Sequence record: NC_014467.1
DNA from: Escherichia phage RB16
DNA: 64,000 nt
Strand: one strand, 5' to 3'
Positions 19,940 through 46,980 of the stretch are shown here, piece after piece (position 1 is the stretch's first letter; each line of letters opens with the position of its first letter). Under the pieces are notes generated by a model, which did no database searches, was not told where the DNA came from, and saw only the letters and a list, made by a program, of their open reading frames with translations. The position numbers and the translations under genes were made by a program.

Positions 19940-21753
19940 AACAAGAAATTATTATTGGTAACGTGGTTGATGATGGCGCTGGCGATTACTTACGCCGTGG
20001 TGGTCAGAAAACAAACGCTAACTTTACCGAACTATACGAAAAGCTGGGTGATGGGGAGATCCCACACCCAGCGGGTGCATGGAAAACACATTCAGCACCG
20101 ACTCTGAACCCGATTTTCGGTGATTCATGGGCGCTGAATACCAGCAACAACCGTATTACTGTAAACCTCCCTAAAGGCGGCGTAGGCGATTATAACAAGG
20201 TTATTCGTCTGCGTGACGTATGGAGTAAATGGGCTGTAAACAACGTCCGTATTGTTCCTGCAACTGGTGATACCATCAAAGGATCACCAACTTACAAAGA
20301 ACTGTACAAAGATTTCATGGATGTTGAGTTAGTTTATTGTGCGCCTGGTCGTTGGGAATATGTCGAAAACAAACAGGTTGACAAAATCACAACTTCCGAT
20401 CTGGCTACTGTAGCAAAAGAAACATATATTGCTACACAAGGACAGACAGATTTCCCGAATGTGTTTGGCCCTGGTAACTCGTACAACGTCCGTGCTCTGG
20501 AAGTTTACTATCGTGGTAACTTGCTGTACATCGACGACAAAAACGGATTTGTTGAAGCAAACAGCGATTATGGTTCACCTGGTACAAACCCTGGAGAATT
20601 GATTGACCTTGATGGTACTAACATACGCCTTAAACGTCCGTGTAACGCTGGAGACACGCTTCAATTCGTAACCTATATGGATGGTATAGCGACATGGCGA
20701 TCGACGTATGAGGCGCATACTATGCGCGTATACAACACGGGTGATACTGAACTGGTAAGCGTACCTGGTGAAATCTGGGTTGGCAACCTTGCAACCAAAA
20801 AAGAATTTACCACTGCTGAATTCGGGATCAGTTCTCGTGTATTGATTAATCCGAACTCTTTCGAACTGCTGTTGAACGGTCGCCAACTTGTTAAAGCAGG
20901 TGACGCGGATCTTCCTACATTCGTGTGTGAAGGGGCAGAAGGTTATGATGAAGATAGCTGTTTAGCTAACTCCGGTGCGTGGGTTCCTTCTGGACAGGAC
21001 TACAGTTTGATCTTTGTTGATTCCATTGTAACAGGTATCAAATTCAGTCAACCTCTTGAAAGTCGCGATGTTGTTACGATCCGTTGGTTCAATAACGATA
21101 TCGGAACTGTAATGGAATGGGAAGGTGTTGGCGGTATTAAAGAGCATACCGATAAAATCTATCTGAACAACGAAGAAGAGTTAACCCTAGTTGGACGGAT
21201 TGAATATACCGACTATAACAACCCGTCGCAGAAAACGATGCGTAAAATTACGGAACCTTTCAGCGGTCGATTGCTGGATCTGCAAGCGTTTTTTGATGTG
21301 ATTCATCCGATCGGGACGATCTACGAAAACGCGCATAACGACGCAAACCCAGGCGAATACATGGGCTTCGGTATCTGGAAACGGTACGCAGAAGGTCAAT
21401 TTATCGCTGGTTGGACAACTGATGCAGCAGATAGCGATTTTGGTTTAAACAACAACGATTTGGATGGTTCTGGACAGCCTACACACACAGCAGGTGGTTC
21501 TGGTGGTGAACGTGGTTATGAAATTCATCCGATCAACGTTCCACAAATTGAATCAACCGATAAAGTTCTGATTAAGGACGACAACGGGATCATTATCATT
21601 GGTGGCTGTCAGGTTGACCCAGATGCAACAGGGCCAGGATACACTAAATACCGTGAGGATGTATTGAAAGTAAATCAGGGTAACACTACCCCAGATAAAC
21701 TTAAAACGCTCCCTCCGTATATTACTGCACATCGCTGGATAAGGGTAGCATAA
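19936..21753 (+). CDS. 10: gp10 baseplate wedge subunit and tail pin
   Basis: 605 aa, order and size. Confidence 0.85.
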   Translation: MKQEIIIGNVVDDGAGDYLRRGGQKTNANFTELYEKLGDGEIPHPAGAWKTHSAPTLNPIFGDSWALNTSNNRITVNLPKGGVGDYNKVIRLRDVWSKWAVNNVRIVPATGDTIKGSPTYKELYKDFMDVELVYCAPGRWEYVENKQVDKITTSDLATVAKETYIATQGQTDFPNVFGPGNSYNVRALEVYYRGNLLYIDDKNGFVEANSDYGSPGTNPGELIDLDGTNIRLKRPCNAGDTLQFVTYMDGIATWRSTYEAHTMRVYNTGDTELVSVPGEIWVGNLATKKEFTTAEFGISSRVLINPNSFELLLNGRQLVKAGDADLPTFVCEGAEGYDEDSCLANSGAWVPSGQDYSLIFVDSIVTGIKFSQPLESRDVVTIRWFNNDIGTVMEWEGVGGIKEHTDKIYLNNEEELTLVGRIEYTDYNNPSQKTMRKITEPFSGRLLDLQAFFDVIHPIGTIYENAHNDANPGEYMGFGIWKRYAEGQFIAGWTTDAADSDFGLNNNDLDGSGQPTHTAGGSGGERGYEIHPINVPQIESTDKVLIKDDNGIIIIGGCQVDPDATGPGYTKYREDVLKVNQGNTTPDKLKTLPPYITAHRWIRVA

Positions 21754-22415
21754 TGACACAATTTATTTCAAAGACAAGGGAGGGGGCGAAAGTCCCTTCC
21801 CGTGAAGCAGACTTTTTGCAATATGAAATGGGTACTAAAGACCCTCTTATCGGTGGTAAACGTACTATCGGTGGTGCAAACGTCGATCAGCTTCGTAAAG
21901 GGGTAGATTATCCCAACGTGCAATCAGCAATCGATGACCTGTATACTCTGTCTCAACAGATCCCGATCAACGGGGTTATCATGATGACAGAAGACAGTCC
22001 TCCGACCGCTGTTCAGCAGGTAGAGACTATAACTTTTGATGGTACTGTACAAAACACAGATCCAGACCAGACAAAAGCAACAATTCATGTTTATGGATTC
22101 CCGTTCGTGTTCGATAACACAACGAACGCATCAACCGTATGCGAAACAGTCTACAACAAGTTTACTGAATTTGTCAATGACGAAAAATATTTCGATCTGG
22201 TAACTCGCAAGGGCTTGAACGGTGAAATTCTGGAAGTTCGGTTTATTGATTGTGTTCCGCATCCGGTAACAAATACTACTGAAAACGGAATATCTATGGT
22301 AGGAACAATCGATGTACAGGCACGATCTGGTTACGGTACGTGGTCGAAACTGGGTGAGGTGGATCTTGCTGTAACTCCGGCAGTTCCAATTTTCTACTTT
22401 AAACGTATTGCGTAA
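21753..22415 (+). CDS. 11: gp11 baseplate wedge subunit and tail pin
   Basis: 220 aa, order and size. Confidence 0.85.
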   Translation: MTQFISKTREGAKVPSREADFLQYEMGTKDPLIGGKRTIGGANVDQLRKGVDYPNVQSAIDDLYTLSQQIPINGVIMMTEDSPPTAVQQVETITFDGTVQNTDPDQTKATIHVYGFPFVFDNTTNASTVCETVYNKFTEFVNDEKYFDLVTRKGLNGEILEVRFIDCVPHPVTNTTENGISMVGTIDVQARSGYGTWSKLGEVDLAVTPAVPIFYFKRIA

Positions 22416-22424
22416 GGATAACCA

Positions 22425-23816
22425 ATGAGTAACAACACAATTAACCACGTAAGCGATGCGTCCGTTTACGTGACTTTTGATCCGGCAGGTACGCAATGGC
22501 CCTCGACTTTCGTCAACGTACAGCAAGCATTAGCCTCTATAGGCCCGTGGGCGCGTACTGATGTTGGTTTGCCTAACGCGGCTCCTGGTATGCGTGGTAT
22601 TGCTGCTATTGCTACCGAGGCGATGATTGACGCAGGGACAGACAACGAAACGATCGTTACTCCTGCATTGCTGGCATATCGTTTACAAAATCCTCATGCG
22701 TCACAAACCGTTTGGGGATATACCAAATACGCAACTGATGCGGAAGCGGTTGATGTCGCAAACGATCTGGTTTCATTAACTCCGCGTTCGATCAATGTGG
22801 TTTTCAATACCAGACACGCATCAGAAACCGTGTGGGGTTCTTCTAAACTGTCAACGACAGCACAGGCAACAGCGGGTACTGATGATACAACCTCAATGAC
22901 ACCATTGAAGGTAAAACAAGCAATCTCTGCTCTGGTTCCGGTACAATCCAACGCAACAGAAAGCGCGTTCGGTTTGGTTCAGTTGGCTACGGTTTCAGAA
23001 GTCCGCGCGGGTACTATTCGCGACGGTTTCGCAATTTCACCGTATACGTTTATTCGTCTGAATGCAACAGAAAGCGATCTGGGTATTGTTCGCCTAGCAA
23101 GTCAGGCAGAAGTAAACGCAGGAACTGATGATACCAAAGCCGTTACCCCGTTAAAACTGGCTAACCTTAAAGGCTCCGGTGGTTCTTTCGGTTTGGTTAA
23201 ATTATCAACAGAAGTAAACGCAGGGCTGGCTAACACTGCTCTTTCTGCGGGTGCTAACGTAGTACCGAGCAACCGTGACAGCGCTATCACTGGTGGTGCA
23301 TTGTATCAGGGTTCAGTTGCTGCTGCTAATAAATACCAGACACATAGCGATATCGAAGCATCGTTACCGATTGGCTGTATGATGATGGCTGCATTTAACT
23401 CCGATTACGGAAACCTGTGTATTGCCAACGGTCGCGGGATGTATACATACGAATACCCAGAACTGTTTGCACGTATAGGCTATACGTATGGCGGTAGTGG
23501 TAACATCTTTAATCTTCCTGATATGCGCGGCGTAGTTGCTCGCGGATTTGATGCGGGACGTGGTTTAGACCCAGGTCGTGGATTTGGTACATACCAGCAT
23601 CACGAAGTACAGTCTCATGAGCATCCATTGCAGATGATCTATCAGTCTGGTGGTAACTTACCATCATGGCAGTGTGTTTATGAACTGCGTACTGCTGAGA
23701 AGAATGACCAGAAATTATACTGGCCTGATCCATCACTCAGTAAAGCAATGGCTGTAGGCGGTAACGAAACGCGAATGAAGAACCTTGCGGTCAACTATGT
23801 AATTCGAGTACGATAA
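22425..23816 (+). CDS. 12: gp12 short tail fibre protein
   Basis: 463 aa; repetitive SQTVWGYTKYATDAEA / SETVWGSSKLSTTAQA motifs; position before wac. Confidence 0.8.
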   Translation: MSNNTINHVSDASVYVTFDPAGTQWPSTFVNVQQALASIGPWARTDVGLPNAAPGMRGIAAIATEAMIDAGTDNETIVTPALLAYRLQNPHASQTVWGYTKYATDAEAVDVANDLVSLTPRSINVVFNTRHASETVWGSSKLSTTAQATAGTDDTTSMTPLKVKQAISALVPVQSNATESAFGLVQLATVSEVRAGTIRDGFAISPYTFIRLNATESDLGIVRLASQAEVNAGTDDTKAVTPLKLANLKGSGGSFGLVKLSTEVNAGLANTALSAGANVVPSNRDSAITGGALYQGSVAAANKYQTHSDIEASLPIGCMMMAAFNSDYGNLCIANGRGMYTYEYPELFARIGYTYGGSGNIFNLPDMRGVVARGFDAGRGLDPGRGFGTYQHHEVQSHEHPLQMIYQSGGNLPSWQCVYELRTAEKNDQKLYWPDPSLSKAMAVGGNETRMKNLAVNYVIRVR

Positions 23817-23828
23817 AGGGGTTAATCC

Positions 23829-26117
23829 ATGATTTCAAAACTTAACCCGTTACCAAAGATCCCGTTTGTTGATGGTGTCCCTTCGGACACCACACAAACC
23901 CCGATCAACTGGATAATTAACGGCGAAACTCTCGATGGTGCTAAAACCAAAGTCACTAACGAGGGTTCTTTAAACAGGTGCGGTGTTCTGGTACAAAAGA
24001 ACGCGGTGCAATTAGAAACCAACACCATTACACAGACTGCAAAAATCAACGAAGTTATCGATCAGGTTAACCTCATTAGTGAAAACCTCGCGGCTATTTC
24101 TGATGAAAGCGTGATTGACAAACTGGATCAGGTTGTTGCTGATGTAGAAGTGTTGAAAGTTGATATGACTGCGGTTCAAGGTTCTACTGCAAGCAATACC
24201 CTGAAAATCCAGGATCTCGATAAAGAGATCGGGACGTGGGACGCTTCAACAGATCCTAAACACCGTACCATTCGAAAAGATATTATTTTCCTGAAAGGGG
24301 AAATGGGTGCGTACCCTGGGTTTAACGAAAACGGCGACGTAGATCCGACATCAACGGGTTCCGGCATGAAATACAAAATCATGACGAACGCGCAAGCGAT
24401 TTCGATTCATGAAGGACGTATTACGCGCCTTGAAGATGATTGGGCTAACTCAGACGTAGGTCATTTAACTGATGAAGTAACCGATCTGCGTAACGAAATG
24501 GGGCCAAAACATTTAGCGACGTTTGAATCTGTATATGTTCGTCTAAACATTATCGGTACTGAGATCACTGGTATCAATTCCGAACTAACCAGCATCAACC
24601 AATATATCGGTCGTACTGGCACGGGTGGAACTGGTAGTATTTCTGCGCGTATGACTACAGCAGAATCGAATATCGCAACCCTGCAAACACAGATGAATGA
24701 TTCTGCTACTGGTGTATTACCTCGCGTAATTTCTTTGGAAAATGCTGTCGGTAACTCTCAGATCCCTGGTAGTATTCGTTACGACATCAGCGCAATCAAA
24801 CGTGACATCGGTGATATCAACATGATCGTCGGTGAATCAAGCGATGATGGTCTTCGTGGGGAAATGGCTCAGGTTATGACCGATATCGGTACTGATTCAC
24901 AGCCTACGAGCATCAAAGGCCGTTTGCTGAACGTTGAGAACACCCAACGTGACGATCACCAGAAACTGATTGACGTTGAATCTGTTGTTGGTAATACTTC
25001 AAGTGGACTCGTTGCGGCTAATATCGCGATGGGTAAAGCTGTTTACGGTGATGCAACGAGTTCTGATCCATTCCTGAAAGACGGTATTCAGAAAACAGCG
25101 CGTGACAGTAAAGCGGCTATCGGTGTAAACACAACCGGATCGGAAACAGGGATCTATAAACTGATTTCAGATTTGACTGCTCGTGTTGCTGCACTTGAAA
25201 GCGGTACTGGTGGCGAACTTGAACAACGTGTTTCTGATTTGGAAACCAATAAAGCATCGCATCAGGACGTTGCAAACGCATTGGTTCCGTATATTACCGA
25301 AGCGGAAGCAGATGTTAAGTACGAACCGAAGAAAATTCCGTTATCGTTTACGCAAAACCTTGTTAGGCGTGGCGATTATATCGAAGGTGATGACATTTCT
25401 TTCATGGTTACGGTAACAGGTGGTAAACTGCCTTATGTCTACCAGTGGAAGAAAGGAACCGCTGATGTAGGTACTAACGCATCGAGCATTCTGATCCAAA
25501 GCATTACCTCTGCCGACGCTGGCGTGTATAAAGTTGTTGTTACCGATGCAGACAACACCGTAATTACTTCTGACGAAGTGACGGTTGCTGTTTATCCGGT
25601 TCCTCAGTTTGATACTAACCTGGCTGACAAATCGGTGGTTGACGGTGATCCTCTGACTCTGGAAGTTGTATACAGCGGTGGTAAACCTCCGTACACTTAC
25701 GAATGGTTCAAAGATAACTCTGTTATCTCTGGGGAAACATCAGCAACATTTACCAAATCTGCTGTTACAAGCGCTGATGCTGGTGAATACTATGTTTCTG
25801 TAACTGACGCAATGAACAACCAAAACGATTCAGTGAAAGCAACCGTGACTGTAACACCTCGTCCGGCTCTTGCATTCACTACGGATCTGAGTGCTACTAA
25901 ATCATACAGCACAGGTGCTAACATGGATCTTGCTGTTGTCGTGACTGGTGGTAAAACACCATATACGTATAAATGGTTTAAAGACACTGCGGAAATTTCC
26001 GGTCAGACAGGCGCAAGCCTTACCACTGTAGCAGAAGATGGGGTGTATAAAGTCGAAGTGACGGATGCACTAACGACTAAAATAACATCAACTGAATGCA
26101 CGGTAACTGTGGCATAA
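23829..26117 (+). CDS. wac: fibritin (wac) with three C-terminal Ig-like repeats
   Basis: N-terminal LPKIPFVDGVPSD...NWIINGETLDGAKT and segmented coiled coil resemble T4 fibritin; no foldon-like C-terminus, instead three ~90-aa repeats (VTVTGGKLPYVYQWKKG..., VYSGGKPPYTYEWFKD..., VVTGGKTPYTYKWFKD...). Confidence 0.85.
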   Translation: MISKLNPLPKIPFVDGVPSDTTQTPINWIINGETLDGAKTKVTNEGSLNRCGVLVQKNAVQLETNTITQTAKINEVIDQVNLISENLAAISDESVIDKLDQVVADVEVLKVDMTAVQGSTASNTLKIQDLDKEIGTWDASTDPKHRTIRKDIIFLKGEMGAYPGFNENGDVDPTSTGSGMKYKIMTNAQAISIHEGRITRLEDDWANSDVGHLTDEVTDLRNEMGPKHLATFESVYVRLNIIGTEITGINSELTSINQYIGRTGTGGTGSISARMTTAESNIATLQTQMNDSATGVLPRVISLENAVGNSQIPGSIRYDISAIKRDIGDINMIVGESSDDGLRGEMAQVMTDIGTDSQPTSIKGRLLNVENTQRDDHQKLIDVESVVGNTSSGLVAANIAMGKAVYGDATSSDPFLKDGIQKTARDSKAAIGVNTTGSETGIYKLISDLTARVAALESGTGGELEQRVSDLETNKASHQDVANALVPYITEAEADVKYEPKKIPLSFTQNLVRRGDYIEGDDISFMVTVTGGKLPYVYQWKKGTADVGTNASSILIQSITSADAGVYKVVVTDADNTVITSDEVTVAVYPVPQFDTNLADKSVVDGDPLTLEVVYSGGKPPYTYEWFKDNSVISGETSATFTKSAVTSADAGEYYVSVTDAMNNQNDSVKATVTVTPRPALAFTTDLSATKSYSTGANMDLAVVVTGGKTPYTYKWFKDTAEISGQTGASLTTVAEDGVYKVEVTDALTTKITSTECTVTVA

Positions 26118-26152: not shown

Positions 26153-27076
26153 ATGATTACGAACAATCCTGAACAATTGAAGGATGAAATTCTTCGTCGT
26201 CTGGGCGCACCAATCATCAAAATCGAAATCACACAAGACCAGATTTACGATTGCATTCAACGCGCACTGGATCTGTATGCGGAATATCACTACAACGGAA
26301 CAAACAAAAGTTACATTATCCTTACGTTAGGCGAAGACAACCCGCGAAACGTATTTGATTTGAGTAAAGAACATATTTTCGCGGTTACAAAAGTATTGCG
26401 TACAAATATCGGTTCATTGGTTTCTATGGACGGTACAGCGGTTTATCCGTGGTTTACTGATTTCCTGATGGGGCTTACTGGTGGTTCTCTGGGCGGTCGC
26501 TGTGCATCAAGCGTGTACGGTATGAATGCATATGGCGCGGATCTGGGGTATTTTACACAGATGATGTCATATCAACGTTCAATGCAAGAGTTGCTGGCTC
26601 CATTACCTGATTACTGGTACAACGACGACACTGGTCAGTTTTGTGTATGGGGTAAAGTCAACAACGGTGATATTATTGTCATTGAAGTGATGGTAAGATC
26701 CTTTGTCGATGTTCCTAGTGCCGTAGGAAGCGTTGCAGGATACGCTACAGCGGGTTCTAACGCAGTAGAAGACCAATCCATAGCCGACATCTACGATAAC
26801 CCGTATAACGCGGTTGTGGGCGGTGTACGAGCGGGACAGGGTACAACTGTTACTGGTGGAACCTCTGCATATAACAACCGTTGGGTAAAAGACTACTCAA
26901 CCGCGCTGGTAAAAGAAATCAACGGGCAAATTCTGGCTAAGTTTCAGGGTATGCAATTGCCTGGTGGTGTTGCTCCAGATGGAACACGACTGATTCAGGA
27001 AGCGGAAACCAAATTACAAGGATTGCGCGACGAACTGATTTCTATGTCTGACGCAGTTCCTATTATTATGGTGTAG
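26153..27076 (+). CDS. 13: gp13 neck protein
   Basis: 307 aa, order and size. Confidence 0.8.
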   Translation: MITNNPEQLKDEILRRLGAPIIKIEITQDQIYDCIQRALDLYAEYHYNGTNKSYIILTLGEDNPRNVFDLSKEHIFAVTKVLRTNIGSLVSMDGTAVYPWFTDFLMGLTGGSLGGRCASSVYGMNAYGADLGYFTQMMSYQRSMQELLAPLPDYWYNDDTGQFCVWGKVNNGDIIVIEVMVRSFVDVPSAVGSVAGYATAGSNAVEDQSIADIYDNPYNAVVGGVRAGQGTTVTGGTSAYNNRWVKDYSTALVKEINGQILAKFQGMQLPGGVAPDGTRLIQEAETKLQGLRDELISMSDAVPIIMV

Positions 27077-27084
27077 GGGGAATA

Positions 27085-27831
27085 ATGCAAAACTGGGATG
27101 AAAGTTTATTCGCTCAGTTGTCAACGGGGGAGGGAGTCGATCGCAACTTAAAGGATCAAGTCACTAACCCGTATGTAAACTGGTACAAATATAACCCAAC
27201 ACAACAGCTACATGATTCACTTACAGCAGAATCAATCCAGATGAAATCACCTGATATGTATTATGTCAGACGTGAATTTGTGAATATAGATAAAATTCTG
27301 GGTGAAGACCGAGAGTCTAAATTCACGAAATCGTGGAAGATCGCTGCATATATTGAATCATATGCTAACTATGAAGGACAGCGGGACTTCTTTAGAAAAT
27401 TCGGGTTGAGTTCTAACGACGAAATGACGCTGGTACTAAATCCGCGTTTATTTGCACATCAAACTGATGGTGGTATTCCGGTGCTGGGGGATTTGGTTTA
27501 TTTCCCAATGGATAACAGCTTGTTTGAAATTACATGGGTGGAAGCAGATCCGTTCTATCAGTTCGGTGATCGTCCTCAACGTAAAATCAACCTGGCTAAA
27601 TTCATCTACACGGGCGAAGAATTGGCTCCTGAATTGCAGCGAAACGAAGGAATCCATATCGAACCTGATGCAGAACTGGATCTTGAACCTATTCGAAATC
27701 TTGACGGGCTGGCAGATATTAACATTGAACAGTACGAAGAAGACAAAGAATTTGAAAGAGAAGGTGACGAGTTTATCGAATCTTTTGATGTTGTCAACGG
27801 TCGCGGTTCTCCGTTTGCAAGTCTACCATAA
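27085..27831 (+). CDS. 14: gp14 neck protein
   Basis: 248 aa, order and size. Confidence 0.8.
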   Translation: MQNWDESLFAQLSTGEGVDRNLKDQVTNPYVNWYKYNPTQQLHDSLTAESIQMKSPDMYYVRREFVNIDKILGEDRESKFTKSWKIAAYIESYANYEGQRDFFRKFGLSSNDEMTLVLNPRLFAHQTDGGIPVLGDLVYFPMDNSLFEITWVEADPFYQFGDRPQRKINLAKFIYTGEELAPELQRNEGIHIEPDAELDLEPIRNLDGLADINIEQYEEDKEFEREGDEFIESFDVVNGRGSPFASLP

Positions 27832-27888
27832 ATAAGTTAAATGGGTATAGGCGGAAGTCTATACCCTCTTCAAAGAGGGGTTTATGAT

Positions 27889-28614
27889 ATGGTTGCAAAA
27901 ATCTCTATAGAACAACGAGAACATCAATTAAAAGAACGTTGTGCGGAATTAGAACTATCTTTTGATGGATGGGTAGACCAATCAGCGATCACAAAATATT
28001 CAAAGTTTTATGTTGTTTGCAGTAAAGGACATAGAACAGAAAAACAGATCAAACCATTTGTCAACAAAAGTCGTCCAAACGGATGTTATTTGTGTTCTCC
28101 TAAGATGAAAATATCAAAGGAAAACAGAATCGAGGAAATCAAAACTCTTGCAGATTCAATTGGATATACATTCATAGATTTCGTTGGGGTGTATAAAGAT
28201 GCTCACACAAAAATATCAATGGTTTGCGATAAAGGCCATAATTGGGATGTAAGTATAGTTGCTTTTCTCAATCAAGGTCATCGCTGTAAAAAATGCGCAA
28301 CGTCTGGGTTCAATACGAACAAACCAGCATACGTATACGTACAATCACTATCTGGAAAATTTCTGAAATTTGGGATAACCAACAGAACACCAAAGAAAAG
28401 AATGTGTGCGCAATCAAATAAATCCGTTTATAAACACGAACTGGTTTATCAAAAATTATTCGATAAAGGTATTGATGCAATGAGTATTGAACAGAAGATC
28501 AAACAATCTCTTGTTTGTGGCGTAGTTGATAAATCAGATATGATGGATGGATATACAGAAACAACAGATATATCCAATTACGATAAACTGTTGAATATTA
28601 TAGAAGGAGTATAA
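27889..28614 (+). CDS. zinc-ribbon repeat protein with C-terminal GIY-YIG-like segment; putative free-standing endonuclease between genes 14 and 15
   Basis: Two CxKGH...CxxC modules; C-terminal PAYVYVQSLSGKFLKFGITNRTPKKR resembles a GIY-x10-YIG core; start at MVAKISIE with AGAGGGG SD (track ORF starts at 27841). Confidence 0.45.
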   Translation: MVAKISIEQREHQLKERCAELELSFDGWVDQSAITKYSKFYVVCSKGHRTEKQIKPFVNKSRPNGCYLCSPKMKISKENRIEEIKTLADSIGYTFIDFVGVYKDAHTKISMVCDKGHNWDVSIVAFLNQGHRCKKCATSGFNTNKPAYVYVQSLSGKFLKFGITNRTPKKRMCAQSNKSVYKHELVYQKLFDKGIDAMSIEQKIKQSLVCGVVDKSDMMDGYTETTDISNYDKLLNIIEGV

Positions 28615-44765: not shown

Positions 44766-45422
44766 ATGAAAATTGATTACGAATTGGTAGAAGGGTTCCG
44801 TGCTCTGCCTACTAAAGAACAGAAAGGCGCACTGGCTGACTACGCTCAAAGCACCTTCGAAGTAAAACTGAACAAACAAAAATCATTCGATAACATGCTG
44901 GCTGATCTGGAAGCTGCTGTACCAGCGGAAGAAAAACCGGAACTGTTGATTGATTCCCCAGAACCAGAAATAGTTTCGTACACTGGTAGCTCTATGATGG
45001 ATGAACCTGTTGTTAACGCTCCGAACATTCCTGATGTGGTTGTCGATGTGTCGCAGGACTTTATGAATTACGTCAAAGAAGTTGCGCCGGAAGTGGCTGA
45101 CCAGATTCAATTAGTACCTGATGTTGTAGAAGCTCCTGTAACCGCTTCTGACGAGTCCAAAGCTGATACGGCATGGTTGGATGGTTTTAGTCCTACCATC
45201 GTTCTGATGGGGCGTAGCGCTCGTTCTAACGGCTATTATACGTGTCCCTGGTGGATCTATGATTGGATTAAGAAAAATCCAGATTGGTACAAAGATCCTG
45301 ACCAATGTCCACACTACAGCGCACGGGATACCCTGAAATCGCTGGTGTACTACATCAAGCGTGATGGTCAAGTTACTGTGCGTGAAACTCGCAACAGCAG
45401 TTTCGACACCTTCAAGTTTTAG
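44766..45422 (+). CDS. hypothetical protein (218 aa) with C-terminal CPWWIYDWIKKNPDWY motif
   Basis: ORF track; shares the PWWIYD-x-I...DW motif with the ORF at 46477. Confidence 0.55.
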   Translation: MKIDYELVEGFRALPTKEQKGALADYAQSTFEVKLNKQKSFDNMLADLEAAVPAEEKPELLIDSPEPEIVSYTGSSMMDEPVVNAPNIPDVVVDVSQDFMNYVKEVAPEVADQIQLVPDVVEAPVTASDESKADTAWLDGFSPTIVLMGRSARSNGYYTCPWWIYDWIKKNPDWYKDPDQCPHYSARDTLKSLVYYIKRDGQVTVRETRNSSFDTFKF

Positions 45423-45879: not shown

Positions 45880-46449
45880 ATGAACAAATTAAACCATGAA
45901 TGTCTGAAAGATTTGTCAGATGGTAAAGAAATCGAGAACGTTATATTCCTCGATATTGACGGCGTGTTAAATAATATGCGCTCTATGAAATTCGGTGAAC
46001 ATATGGACATCGAATGTGCGCGACATCTACGCCGGATCGTCAACCATGCAAATTGTGATATCGTTGTTTCTTCAACGTGGCGCATGGGGAACACGACACA
46101 CACCCTACGCGAAATCCTGTACCCCTGGGGATTGTATCGCGTTATAGGCCGAACCTGTAGCAACATGGTTGGTAATCGTGTGCGTGGTGATGAAATAAAG
46201 GCGTGGATCGATACGTTCGGATGTAAGAACTATATGATCCTTGATGATGATTGTGATATGTTGCCAGAACAAAAAGATCACTTCGTCAGAACAGATCCTG
46301 AAATCGGGCTTACCGAAGAACAATCAACCTTTGCGATCCGCAATATATTTGGAGTAACAACCCCGTTTTGTCCTGAATGCAACGGCTACGGGCGCGTGAA
46401 CCAATACGATAAATGCGGTAGCTGTAACGGTAAAATATTGCGTCTATAA
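45880..46449 (+). CDS. HAD-like phosphatase-fold protein with C-terminal zinc ribbon
   Basis: VIFLDIDGVLNN (HAD motif I DxDGV) near N-terminus; C-terminal CPECNGYG...CGSCNGK. Confidence 0.55.
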   Translation: MNKLNHECLKDLSDGKEIENVIFLDIDGVLNNMRSMKFGEHMDIECARHLRRIVNHANCDIVVSSTWRMGNTTHTLREILYPWGLYRVIGRTCSNMVGNRVRGDEIKAWIDTFGCKNYMILDDDCDMLPEQKDHFVRTDPEIGLTEEQSTFAIRNIFGVTTPFCPECNGYGRVNQYDKCGSCNGKILRL

Positions 46450-46452
46450 ATA
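46445..46452 (+). promoter_or_regulatory. T4-type late promoter motif TATAAATA upstream of the Ig-like domain gene
   Basis: Exact TATAAATA 25 nt before ATG at 46477. Confidence 0.5.
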
Positions 46453-46476: not shown

Positions 46477-46980
46477 ATGGCTACTGAAAAATGGACTACG
46501 GTTCACCCTATCCCGTGGCGTAACACCAGCTTTACCTATCTTCCGTGGTGGATCTATGATATCATTGTTGCTGCTAATACGGCAGGTGGAGATTGGCGTG
46601 ATTACGCAGAAGAAAAATATGCGAAAGAATTCGACACGCTGAAACAAGCATATATCGACTATACCGATGTTGATTTCATCGAATCTCGCAACGGCTACCT
46701 GTACAAACTCAGTGATTTTACTCCGGCTGATCCGGTTGTTACTATCACCCCGAAAACTGCCCCTGCTGATTTTAAAGTAGGCGATCCTGACCTTGCTGCA
46801 ACCGATCTGTTTACTATCGATCCGAGCGGTACGGCTATGACTCTGACTGTGGATTCCTCTGGTCATGCGTCGATCGTTGGCGGTAAACTCCACGCTGTAA
46901 GCGCTGGTGATGTTGTTGTAACTGCGACCTCCGGTTCTGTTACTGCAAACCTGACTGTAAATGTTAAAGTTGCTCCATAA
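46477..46980 (+). CDS. protein with N-terminal PWWIYD motif and C-terminal bacterial Ig-like (Big_2-type) domain; possible virion decoration protein
   Basis: C-terminal DPSGTAMTLTVDSSGHASIVGGKLHAVSAGDVVVTATSGSVTANLTVNVKV typical of Ig-like beta-sandwich; late promoter motif upstream. Confidence 0.6.
   Translation: MATEKWTTVHPIPWRNTSFTYLPWWIYDIIVAANTAGGDWRDYAEEKYAKEFDTLKQAYIDYTDVDFIESRNGYLYKLSDFTPADPVVTITPKTAPADFKVGDPDLAATDLFTIDPSGTAMTLTVDSSGHASIVGGKLHAVSAGDVVVTATSGSVTANLTVNVKVAP

What the first reader, a model, noticed from the sequence alone, without database searches (positions are those of the whole stretch)
25341..26117. Fibritin ends in three Ig-like repeats instead of a foldon
The N-terminal two thirds resemble T4 fibritin (conserved N-terminus and segmented coiled coil), but the last ~255 residues are three ~90-aa repeats with the signatures GG(K)xPYxYxW(F)K and SADAGxYxVxVTD, typical of Ig-like beta-sandwich domains. 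No C-terminal trimerising foldon like that of T4 is visible. This suggests the whiskers display adhesion-type Ig domains, perhaps taking over part of the role of Hoc, which I could not find in this window.
Basis: partly seen in the sequence, partly recalled or inferred. Interest (0 to 1): 0.5.

Follow-up and report, generated by a model that had tools for sequence, protein, structure and literature searches.

The report
RB43-type fibritin tipped with Ig domains
The neck-whisker protein of this RB43-like T4-type phage does end in three immunoglobulin-like domains instead of the T4 foldon, but this was published for phage RB43 in 2005 and 2013, so the finding is correct but not new.

Summary
The ORF at 23829..26117 (+, 762 aa) is the wac (fibritin) gene of an RB43-like Pseudotevenvirus. 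It is 99.5% identical in DNA to RB43 wac and lies between gene 12 and gene 13. Residues 9-456 are collinear with T4 fibritin. Residues 502-762 are three tandem I-set Ig-like domains of 86-88 aa, supported by Pfam, a confident AlphaFold2 model and Foldseek matches to titin and RB49 Hoc. No T4 foldon is detectable in the protein or anywhere else in the window. Only a short conserved motif, PYITEAEADVKYEPK, sits where the foldon would begin.

This is already known. Letarov & Krisch (2013, citing Letarov et al. 2005) describe three Ig-like domains on RB43 fibritin, one on KP15 fibritin, foldon-independent folding, and the same accessory-adhesin idea.

A Hoc homologue is present at 46477..46980.

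New here, from relatives rather than the window: the Ig array ranges from 0 to 5 domains of at least four types, in different orders. One pair of fibritins differs at only 9 of the 676 shared residues yet differs by one whole domain. This points to an accessory module that is still being reshuffled. Its function remains untested.

The parts
23829..26117 (+). wac gene: fibritin (neck collar and whisker protein), 762 aa plus stop codon
   Evidence: ORF. 99.5% nt identity to RB43 wac (AY266305, NC_007023) and 99.7% to Citrobacter phage vB_Cfr_Xman. PHROG 1056 'fibritin neck whisker', E 2.6e-184. Differs at 2 residues from the database representative P0001.
23829..24026 (+). N-terminal neck-attachment domain (residues 1-66)
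   Evidence: Residues 9-66 match the solved T4 fibritin N-terminal fragments 1ox3 and 2ibl (E 2e-7) and full-length T4 fibritin. The attachment role is taken from T4 literature (PMC3797505).
24027..25196 (+). Segmented coiled-coil rod collinear with T4 fibritin (residues 67-456)
   Evidence: phmmer alignment of residues 9-456 to T4 7-454, E 8.8e-47. Pfam Fibritin_C over residues 373-489, E 5e-23.
25197..25286 (+). Gly-rich loop plus extra helical segments (residues 457-486) with no T4 counterpart; part of it is absent from some relatives
   Evidence: Junction alignment: P0038 lacks residues 459-473, and P0045 and P0050 have shorter versions. AF2 predicts helices here with low confidence, pLDDT about 60.
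25287..25331 (+). Conserved rod-end motif PYITEAEADVKYEPK (residues 487-501), at the position where the T4 foldon begins
   Evidence: The pattern Y[IY][TK]..[ED][AS]D.[KR][YF]..K is kept in all 13 RB43- and KP15-type fibritins in which a pattern search found the motif and which were then aligned. These include the variant without Ig domains, which ends 2 residues after it. A profile of this region aligns T4 GYIPEAPRD to PYITEVEAD at 7.0 bits, above all 1000 shuffles (max 6.6). The foldon alone is not significant.
25332..25595 (+). Ig-like domain 1 (residues 502-589), type R1
   Evidence: HMM boundaries. Pfam SprB repeat motif at residues 527-544 and Ig_3. AF2 pLDDT above 90.
25596..25856 (+). 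Ig-like domain 2 (residues 590-676), type R2
   Evidence: HMM boundaries. Best Pfam stretches for Ig_3, I-set and Ig_2 fall at residues 592-673. Matches the T5-type decoration protein Ig domain 5lxk at E 6e-14.
25857..26114 (+). Ig-like domain 3 (residues 677-762), type R3; C-terminus of the protein
   Evidence: HMM boundaries. Matches PDB 9occ 'putative neck whiskers protein gp24' residues 152-237, E 1.5e-9. AF2 pLDDT 93-97.
22425..23816 (+). Upstream neighbour: gene 12 (short tail fibre), fixing the locus as gp12-wac-gp13
   Evidence: Pfam Collar domain; RB43 annotation.
26153..27076 (+). Downstream neighbour: gene 13 (neck protein). Only 35 nt separate it from wac, so there is no room for a separate foldon or chaperone ORF
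   Evidence: ORF list; RB43 annotation; the gp13 Pfam family is recorded for the homologous loci L003 and L004.

Best explanation
This is the RB43-type fibritin (Wac).

Shown here: the chain has a T4-like N-terminal domain, a segmented helical rod collinear with T4 fibritin to residue 456, about 45 further rod-end residues ending in a conserved motif, and then three tandem I-set Ig-like domains in place of the T4 foldon.

Inferred from T4: the N-terminal domain anchors the protein on the gp13/gp14 neck, and the rod is a parallel trimeric coiled coil forming collar and whisker fibres. Each fibre would then end in three flexible strings of three Ig domains. If the T4 number of 12 fibres holds, about 108 Ig domains surround the neck.

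Inferred function, probability about 0.5: the Ig strings act as low-affinity, high-avidity accessory adhesins. They would hold the virion near carbohydrate-rich surfaces such as the host envelope or mucus before the long tail fibres engage, as proposed for Hoc and for RB43 fibritin in the literature.

Inferred for assembly: the Ig domains are not the trimerisation device. Chain registration must come from the rod and its conserved end motif, because a natural variant ends right after that motif.
For: Identity:
- DNA identity to RB43 wac is 99.5%.
- The locus is gp12-wac-gp13.
- Residues 9-456 are collinear with T4 fibritin.

Ig domains:
- Pfam Ig_3, I-set and Ig_2 score above their cut-offs.
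- The three units are 40-48% identical to the first.
- The AF2 model has pLDDT 93-98 over residues 500-762.
- Foldseek returns titin, sidekick and RB49 Hoc three-Ig fragments at E 1e-15 to 1e-17.

No foldon.

Accessory, modular nature:
- Homologous fibritins carry 0, 1, 2, 3, 4 or 5 such domains.
- The domains fall into at least four types in varying order: R1-R2-R3, R1-R2-R3-R4, R1-R2-R4-R3, R1-R2, R3-R4, R3, R1, R1-R4.
- P0008 (three domains) and P0030 (two domains) differ at only 9 of 676 shared residues, and P0030 ends exactly at a domain boundary.
- The 0-domain and 5-domain variants lie in intact gp12-wac-gp13 loci.
- Varying Ig number is also a feature of the Hoc-like decoration protein of Felixounavirus phages; T4 Hoc itself carries a string of three variable Ig-like domains (PMC10385173 abstract).

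Literature: three Ig-like domains on RB43 fibritin and the adhesin proposal appear in PMC3797505. Fibritin is listed among Ig-bearing myovirus proteins in PMC7563437.
Against: - No binding or adsorption data exist for these domains, and none could be produced here.
- The trimeric state and the stoichiometry are carried over from T4 and were not tested. Only single-chain prediction was available.
[quoted passage not shown] This may mean the Ig region helps RB43 fibritin fold.
- The variant without Ig domains is a metagenome assembly. Its rod (residues 1-440) is only 60% identical to this one, so it may fold differently.
- In T4 the fibritin tip binds the long tail fibres, so the Ig tip here could serve that role instead.
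Confidence: 0.6

Rival explanations
1. The Ig domains are the docking site for the long tail fibres. They would functionally replace the foldon-proximal site that in T4 holds the fibres in the 'up' position and helps attach them during assembly.
For: In T4 a small sequence in the C-terminal part of fibritin interacts with the knee of the long tail fibre (PMC3797505). Collar and whisker fibres both contact the long tail fibres (PMC12609058). The Ig array occupies that distal position.
Against: The terminal domain differs among close relatives (R3, R4, R2, R1 or none) and the number ranges from 0 to 5. That is hard to reconcile with a specific interface to a conserved partner, unless the conserved rod-end motif is the real docking site. 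Co-variation with tail-fibre genes was not tested.
Confidence: 0.2
2. The Ig region is mainly a folding or registration aid. It would initiate or stabilise trimerisation of the rod in the absence of a foldon.
For: PMC3797505 reports that only T4 and JS98 fibritins fold using foldon motifs alone, and that the others, RB43 included, need extra sequence in the expanded C-terminal domain or a downstream gene. No foldon and no downstream chaperone ORF exist here; the gap to gene 13 is 35 nt.
Against: A complete fibritin gene without any Ig domain exists in the same locus. Domain number and order are free to vary. In the single-chain AF2 model the domains come out as separate beta-sandwiches like the tandem Ig fragments of titin and Hoc; the matched Hoc is a monomeric capsid-decoration protein (background knowledge, not tested here).
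Confidence: 0.15
3. One reading: the whisker Ig domains take over part of the role of a missing Hoc.
For: The Ig domains match Hoc-like PHROG families and the RB49 Hoc structure. The Hoc homologue in this window is short, 167 aa against 376 aa for T4 Hoc, and has room for at most one extra domain.
Against: Hoc is not missing. ORF 46477..46980 carries the Hoc capsid-binding domain with the ESRNG motif and its own late promoter.
Confidence: 0.05

Closest known systems
Fibritin (Wac) of phage RB43 (GenBank AY266305; YP_239189; Letarov et al. 2005, as cited in Letarov & Krisch 2013)
   Same: Essentially the same gene: 99.5% nt identity over all 2289 nt, the same length and the same locus. It is described in print as carrying 3 Ig-like domains and folding without a T4 foldon.
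   Different: Only a few substitutions. The window is slightly closer to Citrobacter phages vB_Cfr_Xman and CfP1, at 99.6-99.7%.
T4 fibritin (PDB 2bsg, 3j2o, 1aa0-type fragments)
   Same: N-terminal neck-binding domain and segmented coiled-coil rod, collinear over residues 9-456 (E 8.8e-47). Same gene position.
   Different: T4 ends in the 27-30 aa foldon (beta-hairpin with Trp). Here that is absent, replaced by about 45 extra rod residues and three Ig-like domains.
KP15/Slopekvirus-type and other RB43-type fibritins
   Same: Same rod, same rod-end motif and the same kind of Ig-like domain.
   Different: They carry one domain (KP15, 583 aa) or two (Kp_GWPR59, JC221). Four (851-853 aa), five (941 aa) and none (493 aa) occur in metagenomic relatives. 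Domain types and order differ.
Hoc of T4 and RB49 (PDB 3shs, 5vf3)
   Same: A string of I-set Ig-like domains exposed on the virion. The fold matches at E 3.3e-15 and Hoc-like PHROG families hit at E 1e-43 to 1e-58. Both have a proposed role in weak surface adhesion.
   Different: Hoc is a monomer anchored on capsid hexamers by a capsid-binding domain with the ESRNG motif. Wac showed no match to that domain: its PDB matches to Hoc chains lie only in the Ig region. Wac is anchored on the neck through a coiled-coil rod. The window has its own separate Hoc homologue.
Collar and whisker complexes of Vibrio phage XM1 (gp40) and Felixounavirus Bas63 or Sf14
   Same: Neck appendages that combine Ig-like domains with fibrous whiskers (PMC12609058).
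   Different: There the Ig-like domain forms the collar ring at the neck-proximal end. Here the Ig domains are at the distal tip. No sequence relationship was tested.
PDB 9occ 'putative neck whiskers protein gp24', 9ncf_S 'immunoglobulin-like domain protein', 9c2d_S 'tail protein'
   Same: The closest solved phage proteins by sequence to the Ig region (E 1.5e-9, 1.8e-40 and 7.7e-29).
   Different: They match only the Ig-like domains. I could not identify their source phages or their contexts with the tools used.

Membership tests
T4-type fibritin (Wac) | Conserved ~50-aa N-terminal neck-binding domain | tested here: met
   Residues 9-66 align to T4 fibritin and to the solved N-terminal fragments 1ox3 and 2ibl.
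T4-type fibritin (Wac) | Long segmented coiled-coil rod collinear with T4 | tested here: met
   Residues 9-456 align to T4 7-454, E 8.8e-47. Pfam Fibritin_C scores 81.5 bits against a cut-off of 21.
T4-type fibritin (Wac) | Gene located between gene 12 and gene 13 | tested here: met
   the same holds in relatives L003 and L004.
T4-type fibritin (Wac) | C-terminal foldon (a feature of the T4/JS98 subtype only) | tested here: not met
   No significant similarity to the foldon and no Trp in residues 206-539. The protein is therefore a fibritin of a non-T4 C-terminal type.
T4-type fibritin (Wac) | Parallel homotrimer | not testable with these tools
   Only single-chain prediction is available. RB43 fibritin was among those analysed biochemically by Letarov and co-workers, and the fibritin homologues are described as trimeric (PMC3797505).
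RB43-type fibritin (classification of Letarov & Krisch 2013) | C-terminal module made of Ig-like domains (3 in RB43) | tested here: met
   Three domains at residues 502-589, 590-676 and 677-762; 99.5% nt identity to RB43 wac.
I-set / Ig_3 immunoglobulin-like domains | Profile match above the curated threshold | tested here: met
   Ig_3 73.4 bits (cut-off 30), I-set 49.5 (23.7), Ig_2 50.4 (27).
I-set / Ig_3 immunoglobulin-like domains | Beta-sandwich fold | tested here: met
   AF2 pLDDT 93-98 with all-beta secondary structure. Foldseek probability 1.00 to titin, sidekick, Robo and Hoc Ig fragments.
I-set / Ig_3 immunoglobulin-like domains | Core Trp on one strand and the D.G.Y.[CV] motif | tested here: met
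   W540, W626 and W716, plus DAGVYKV, DAGEYYV and EDGVYKV. The canonical Cys pair is absent; the whole protein has only C51 and C757.
Hoc (capsid decoration protein) | Capsid-binding domain with the conserved ESRNG motif | tested here: not met
   In Wac only the Ig region matches Hoc chains. The capsid-binding domain with ESRNG is found instead in the separate ORF 46477..46980.

The most novel reading that the evidence does not exclude
The Ig array at the whisker tip is an actively reshuffled cassette system. Relatives carry 0 to 5 domains of at least four types in different orders. One pair of fibritins differs at only 9 of the 676 shared residues yet differs by a whole domain, cut cleanly at the TVTV strand that ends each unit. 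The published view is that the fibritin C-terminal module has shown no recent mobility, so this would qualify that view for the RB43 type. It would also imply ongoing selection on the reach, valency or specificity of a neck-borne adhesin, which natural phage pairs could test.
Probability: 0.45. Interest if true: 0.4.

Novelty: already known. Interest (0 to 1): 0.15.

Why it matters
For the window itself it matters little. The gene is the published RB43-type wac, and both its Ig-like C-terminus and the adhesin hypothesis are in the literature and in database annotation.

What remains open is function. No experiment I could find tests whether the whisker Ig domains bind anything, how an RB43-type rod trimerises without a foldon, or what holds the long tail fibres in these phages.

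The natural series of fibritins with 0 to 5 domains found here includes near-isogenic pairs of isolated phages: P0008 (found in a 179,181-bp assembly, and at 83% identity to this Wac like Cronobacter phage Invicta's P0010) and P0030 (Klebsiella phage Kp_GWPR59). These offer a cheap way to test those questions. They are also relevant to phage-therapy candidates against Klebsiella, Enterobacter, Cronobacter and Citrobacter, which make up most of this group.

Tried and rejected
- Letarov et al. 2005 (J Bacteriol 187:1055, PMC545706) could not be read; it is not held. Its content is cited second-hand from PMC3797505.
- Foldon remnant. Direct Smith-Waterman of the foldon is not significant. A profile of the rod end scores the T4 C-terminal 72-mer just above all 1000 shuffles and aligns GYIPEAPRD to PYITEVEAD. 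The foldon alone and the 46-mer tail are not significant. I treat this as a hint of a retained N-terminal arm, not as a foldon.
- DNA-level repeats within 25200-26117: only three short two-copy matches of 15-17 nt. The triplication is old, and DNA repeat tools do not detect it.
- The sigma-70 promoter and terminator scan around wac gave counts no higher than in shuffled sequence. No TATAAATA late-promoter box lies directly upstream of wac. The gene is probably read through from upstream baseplate genes (inference).
- Pfam finds nothing in the Hoc-like ORF, or only a chance-level hit in its C-terminal half. Single-sequence AlphaFold2 of that ORF was unusable, with mean pLDDT 41. Whether its C-terminal ~85 residues are Ig-like is therefore unresolved.
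- Other Ig domains of this kind in the window: none.
- I rejected a hidden extra domain or chaperone ORF after wac. The gap to gene 13 is 35 nt.
Full report
**What is there**

The finding lies in the 3' third of a 2289-nt ORF, 23829..26117 on the + strand, encoding 762 aa. Upstream are gene 11 (21753..22415, Pfam GP11) and gene 12 (22425..23816, tail collar domain). Downstream are gene 13 (26153..27076) and gene 14 (27085..27831, T4 neck protein). This is the T4 order 11-12-wac-13-14.

Megablast puts the ORF at 99.7% identity to Citrobacter phage vB_Cfr_Xman and at 99.5% to wac of RB43, across all 2289 nt. About fifty further Pseudotevenvirus genomes from Enterobacter, Cronobacter, Citrobacter and Klebsiella match at 80-88%. 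The RB43 record annotates the gene as 'fibritin neck whisker' between genes 12 and 13. The translated protein differs at two residues from the representative of a database cluster named 'fibritin neck whisker'.

**Check of the observation**

- *T4-like part.* Residues 9-456 align without large gaps to T4 fibritin residues 7-454 (E 8.8e-47). The N-terminal ~60 residues also match the solved T4 N-terminal fragments. Pfam Fibritin_C covers residues 373-489.
- *The three repeats.* The last 261 residues divide into three units: 502-589, 590-676 and 677-762. They are 40-48% identical to the first unit, with 26 invariant columns.
- *Pfam.* Ig_3, I-set and Ig_2 all score well above their curated cut-offs. 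The GGKxPYxYxW motif is also picked up as a SprB repeat.
- *Structure.* An AlphaFold2 model of residues 440-762, built with a 27-sequence alignment, has pLDDT 93-98 over residues 500-762 and shows three all-beta domains. Residues 440-499 are helical at low confidence. Foldseek against the PDB returns three-Ig fragments of titin, PTP-delta, sidekick and Robo, and the three N-terminal domains of RB49 Hoc (3SHS, E 3.3e-15).

The fold is Ig-like, and no conventional foldon was found.

**The foldon question**

The alignment to T4 stops two or three residues before the foldon. The foldon 27-mer gives a local score of 23 against this protein, and 69% of shuffled foldons reach that score. The only Trp residues beyond position 205 are the three core Trp residues of the Ig domains. 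A phmmer search with the T4 C-terminal 46-mer against all six frames of the window found nothing. The gap to gene 13 is 35 nt, so no separate foldon or chaperone gene follows.

At the foldon's position there is instead:
- a Gly-rich loop;
- extra helical segments;
- a motif, PYITEAEADVKYEPK (residues 487-501). It is conserved in all 13 RB43- and KP15-type fibritins in which a pattern search found it and which were then aligned.

A profile of this region scores the T4 C-terminal 72-mer at 7.0 bits, above all 1000 shuffles (maximum 6.6), and aligns T4 GYIPEAPRD with PYITEVEAD. The foldon alone is not significant. I take this as a weak hint that the extended N-terminal arm of the foldon has a counterpart here. 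The trimerising beta-hairpin has none.

**Already known**

Letarov & Krisch (2013, PMC3797505) make the following statements:
[quoted passage not shown] 2005)'.
- Only T4 and JS98 fibritins fold using foldon motifs alone.

A later paper lists fibritin among the Ig-bearing proteins of contractile-tailed phages, citing Fraser et al. 2006 (PMC7563437). I could not read the 2005 paper itself.

**The Hoc premise is wrong**

ORF 46477..46980 (+, 167 aa) matches PHROG 11091 'Hoc-like head decoration' end to end with E 1e-112. Its residues 8-76 align to residues 293-362 of T4 Hoc, the capsid-binding domain, with E 9.9e-10. The alignment includes the ESRNG motif that Fokine et al. describe as highly conserved (PMC10385173). 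A late-promoter box, TATAAATA, lies at 46445-46452, 25 nt upstream of the start. In the RB43 reference record this gene is split into two short ORFs, 237w and 238w, both annotated Hoc-like. That split may be why it is easy to miss.

**What relatives add**

Among the fibritin homologues found, an HMM of the repeat counts 0, 1, 2, 3, 4 or 5 domains. Protein lengths step accordingly: 493; 571-587; 663-679; 759-770; 851-853; 941 aa.

The domains fall into at least four types, which occur in different combinations:

| Architecture | Example |
|---|---|
| R1-R2-R3 | this window |
| R1-R2-R3-R4 | P0002 |
| R1-R2-R4-R3 | P0006 |
| R1-R2 | P0030 |
| R3-R4 | P0037 |
| R3 | P0038 |
| R1 (diverged, 45-52% identity to R1) | KP15 type |
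| R1-R4 (R1 diverged, 54%) | Yersinia phage JC221 |
| none | P0050 |

P0008 (three domains; it comes from an assembled 179,181-bp contig and, like Cronobacter phage Invicta's P0010, is 83% identical to this Wac) and P0030 (two domains; Klebsiella phage Kp_GWPR59) differ at only 9 of the 676 shared residues. P0030 ends '...TVTVTVA' exactly at the R2/R3 boundary. That looks like a clean, recent loss or gain of one unit at the TVTV strand that ends every unit.

The 0-domain and 5-domain genes both lie in intact gp12-wac-gp13 loci (L003 and L004). The 0-domain protein ends two residues after the conserved rod-end motif. At the DNA level the three units in the window share no long repeats, so the triplication itself is old.

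The closest relatives of the Ig region outside fibritins are Ig-repeat proteins of other phages. The best is the 'tail protein' of the T4-like phage EcS1, at 41% identity.

**How it most likely works**

Shown here: the domain architecture, the absence of a foldon, and the variability of the Ig array among relatives.

Inferred from T4: the N-terminus attaches to the gp13/gp14 neck, and the rod is a parallel trimer. The fibres alternate as collar and whiskers (PMC12609058). With the T4 number of 12 fibres (background knowledge, not tested here), about 108 Ig domains would surround the neck.

Inferred function, about 0.5: the domains act as weak accessory adhesins that work through multivalent binding, in the manner proposed for Hoc. 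The free variation in number, type, order and terminal unit among close relatives fits this. It is the pattern seen in Hoc-like decoration proteins. It fits poorly with a precise interface to a conserved partner.

The variant without Ig domains argues that the domains are not needed for assembly. The conserved rod-end motif is then the best candidate for chain registration or for tail-fibre contact.

Rivals:
- Tail-fibre docking by the Ig tip (about 0.2).
- A folding-aid role for the Ig region (about 0.15). This is kept alive by the published statement that non-T4 fibritins need extra C-terminal sequence to fold.
- Replacement of Hoc (about 0.05).

**Verdict**

The feature is already known, so interest is low. 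The only fresh element is the extent and recency of Ig-cassette reshuffling among relatives. This qualifies the published statement of 'absence of recent mobility' for this C-terminal module and provides natural material for the missing functional tests.

Noticed in passing
window 46477-46980 (+); late-promoter box at 46445-46452: Short Hoc homologue (167 aa) with an inverted layout. The capsid-binding domain with the ESRNG motif is at the N-terminus (residues 8-76 match T4 Hoc 293-362). A beta-rich tail of about 85 aa follows, where T4 Hoc has three Ig domains before the capsid-binding domain. In the RB43 reference record this gene is split into two small ORFs (237w, 238w). The fold of the C-terminal half is unresolved (Pfam found nothing; single-sequence AF2 gave pLDDT 41).
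   Followed up: partly
window 44766-45422 (+): The Inh homologue (minor head protein, protease inhibitor; PHROG 1051) also matches, at residues 152-210, the same capsid-binding segment of a Hoc-like profile (phrog_1149 positions 1074-1134, E 5.8e-6). This suggests Inh and Hoc share a capsid-binding module.
   Followed up: no
window 27841-28614 (+), between gene 14 and gene 15: A 257-aa ORF with two CapR-homology or treble-clef zinc-finger stretches (Pfam CapR, E 6.5e-18). It occupies the slot where RB43 is annotated with a 204-aa mobE homing endonuclease. It is probably a different mobile insertion at the same site.
   Followed up: no
L003 4001-5482; L004 3001-5826; proteins P0002, P0006, P0030, P0037, P0038, P0045: Fibritins of related phages carry 0 to 5 Ig-like domains of at least four types in varying order. 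P0008 and P0030 differ at 9 of 676 shared residues plus one whole domain, with the breakpoint at the TVTV strand that ends each unit.
   Followed up: yes
window, whole: The T4 late-promoter box TATAAATA occurs 9 times against 2.6 expected. Seven are on the + strand, and six of those cluster at 33.1-39.8 kb ahead of the tail, portal and head genes. None lies directly upstream of wac.
   Followed up: partly
window 25287-25331 (Wac residues 487-501): The rod-end motif Y[IY][TK]..[ED][AS]D.[KR][YF]..K is conserved in all 13 RB43- and KP15-type fibritins in which it was found and aligned, and is the C-terminus of the variant without Ig domains. It aligns weakly with the first nine residues of the T4 foldon (GYIPEAPRD). 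It is a candidate registration or tail-fibre contact element.
   Followed up: partly
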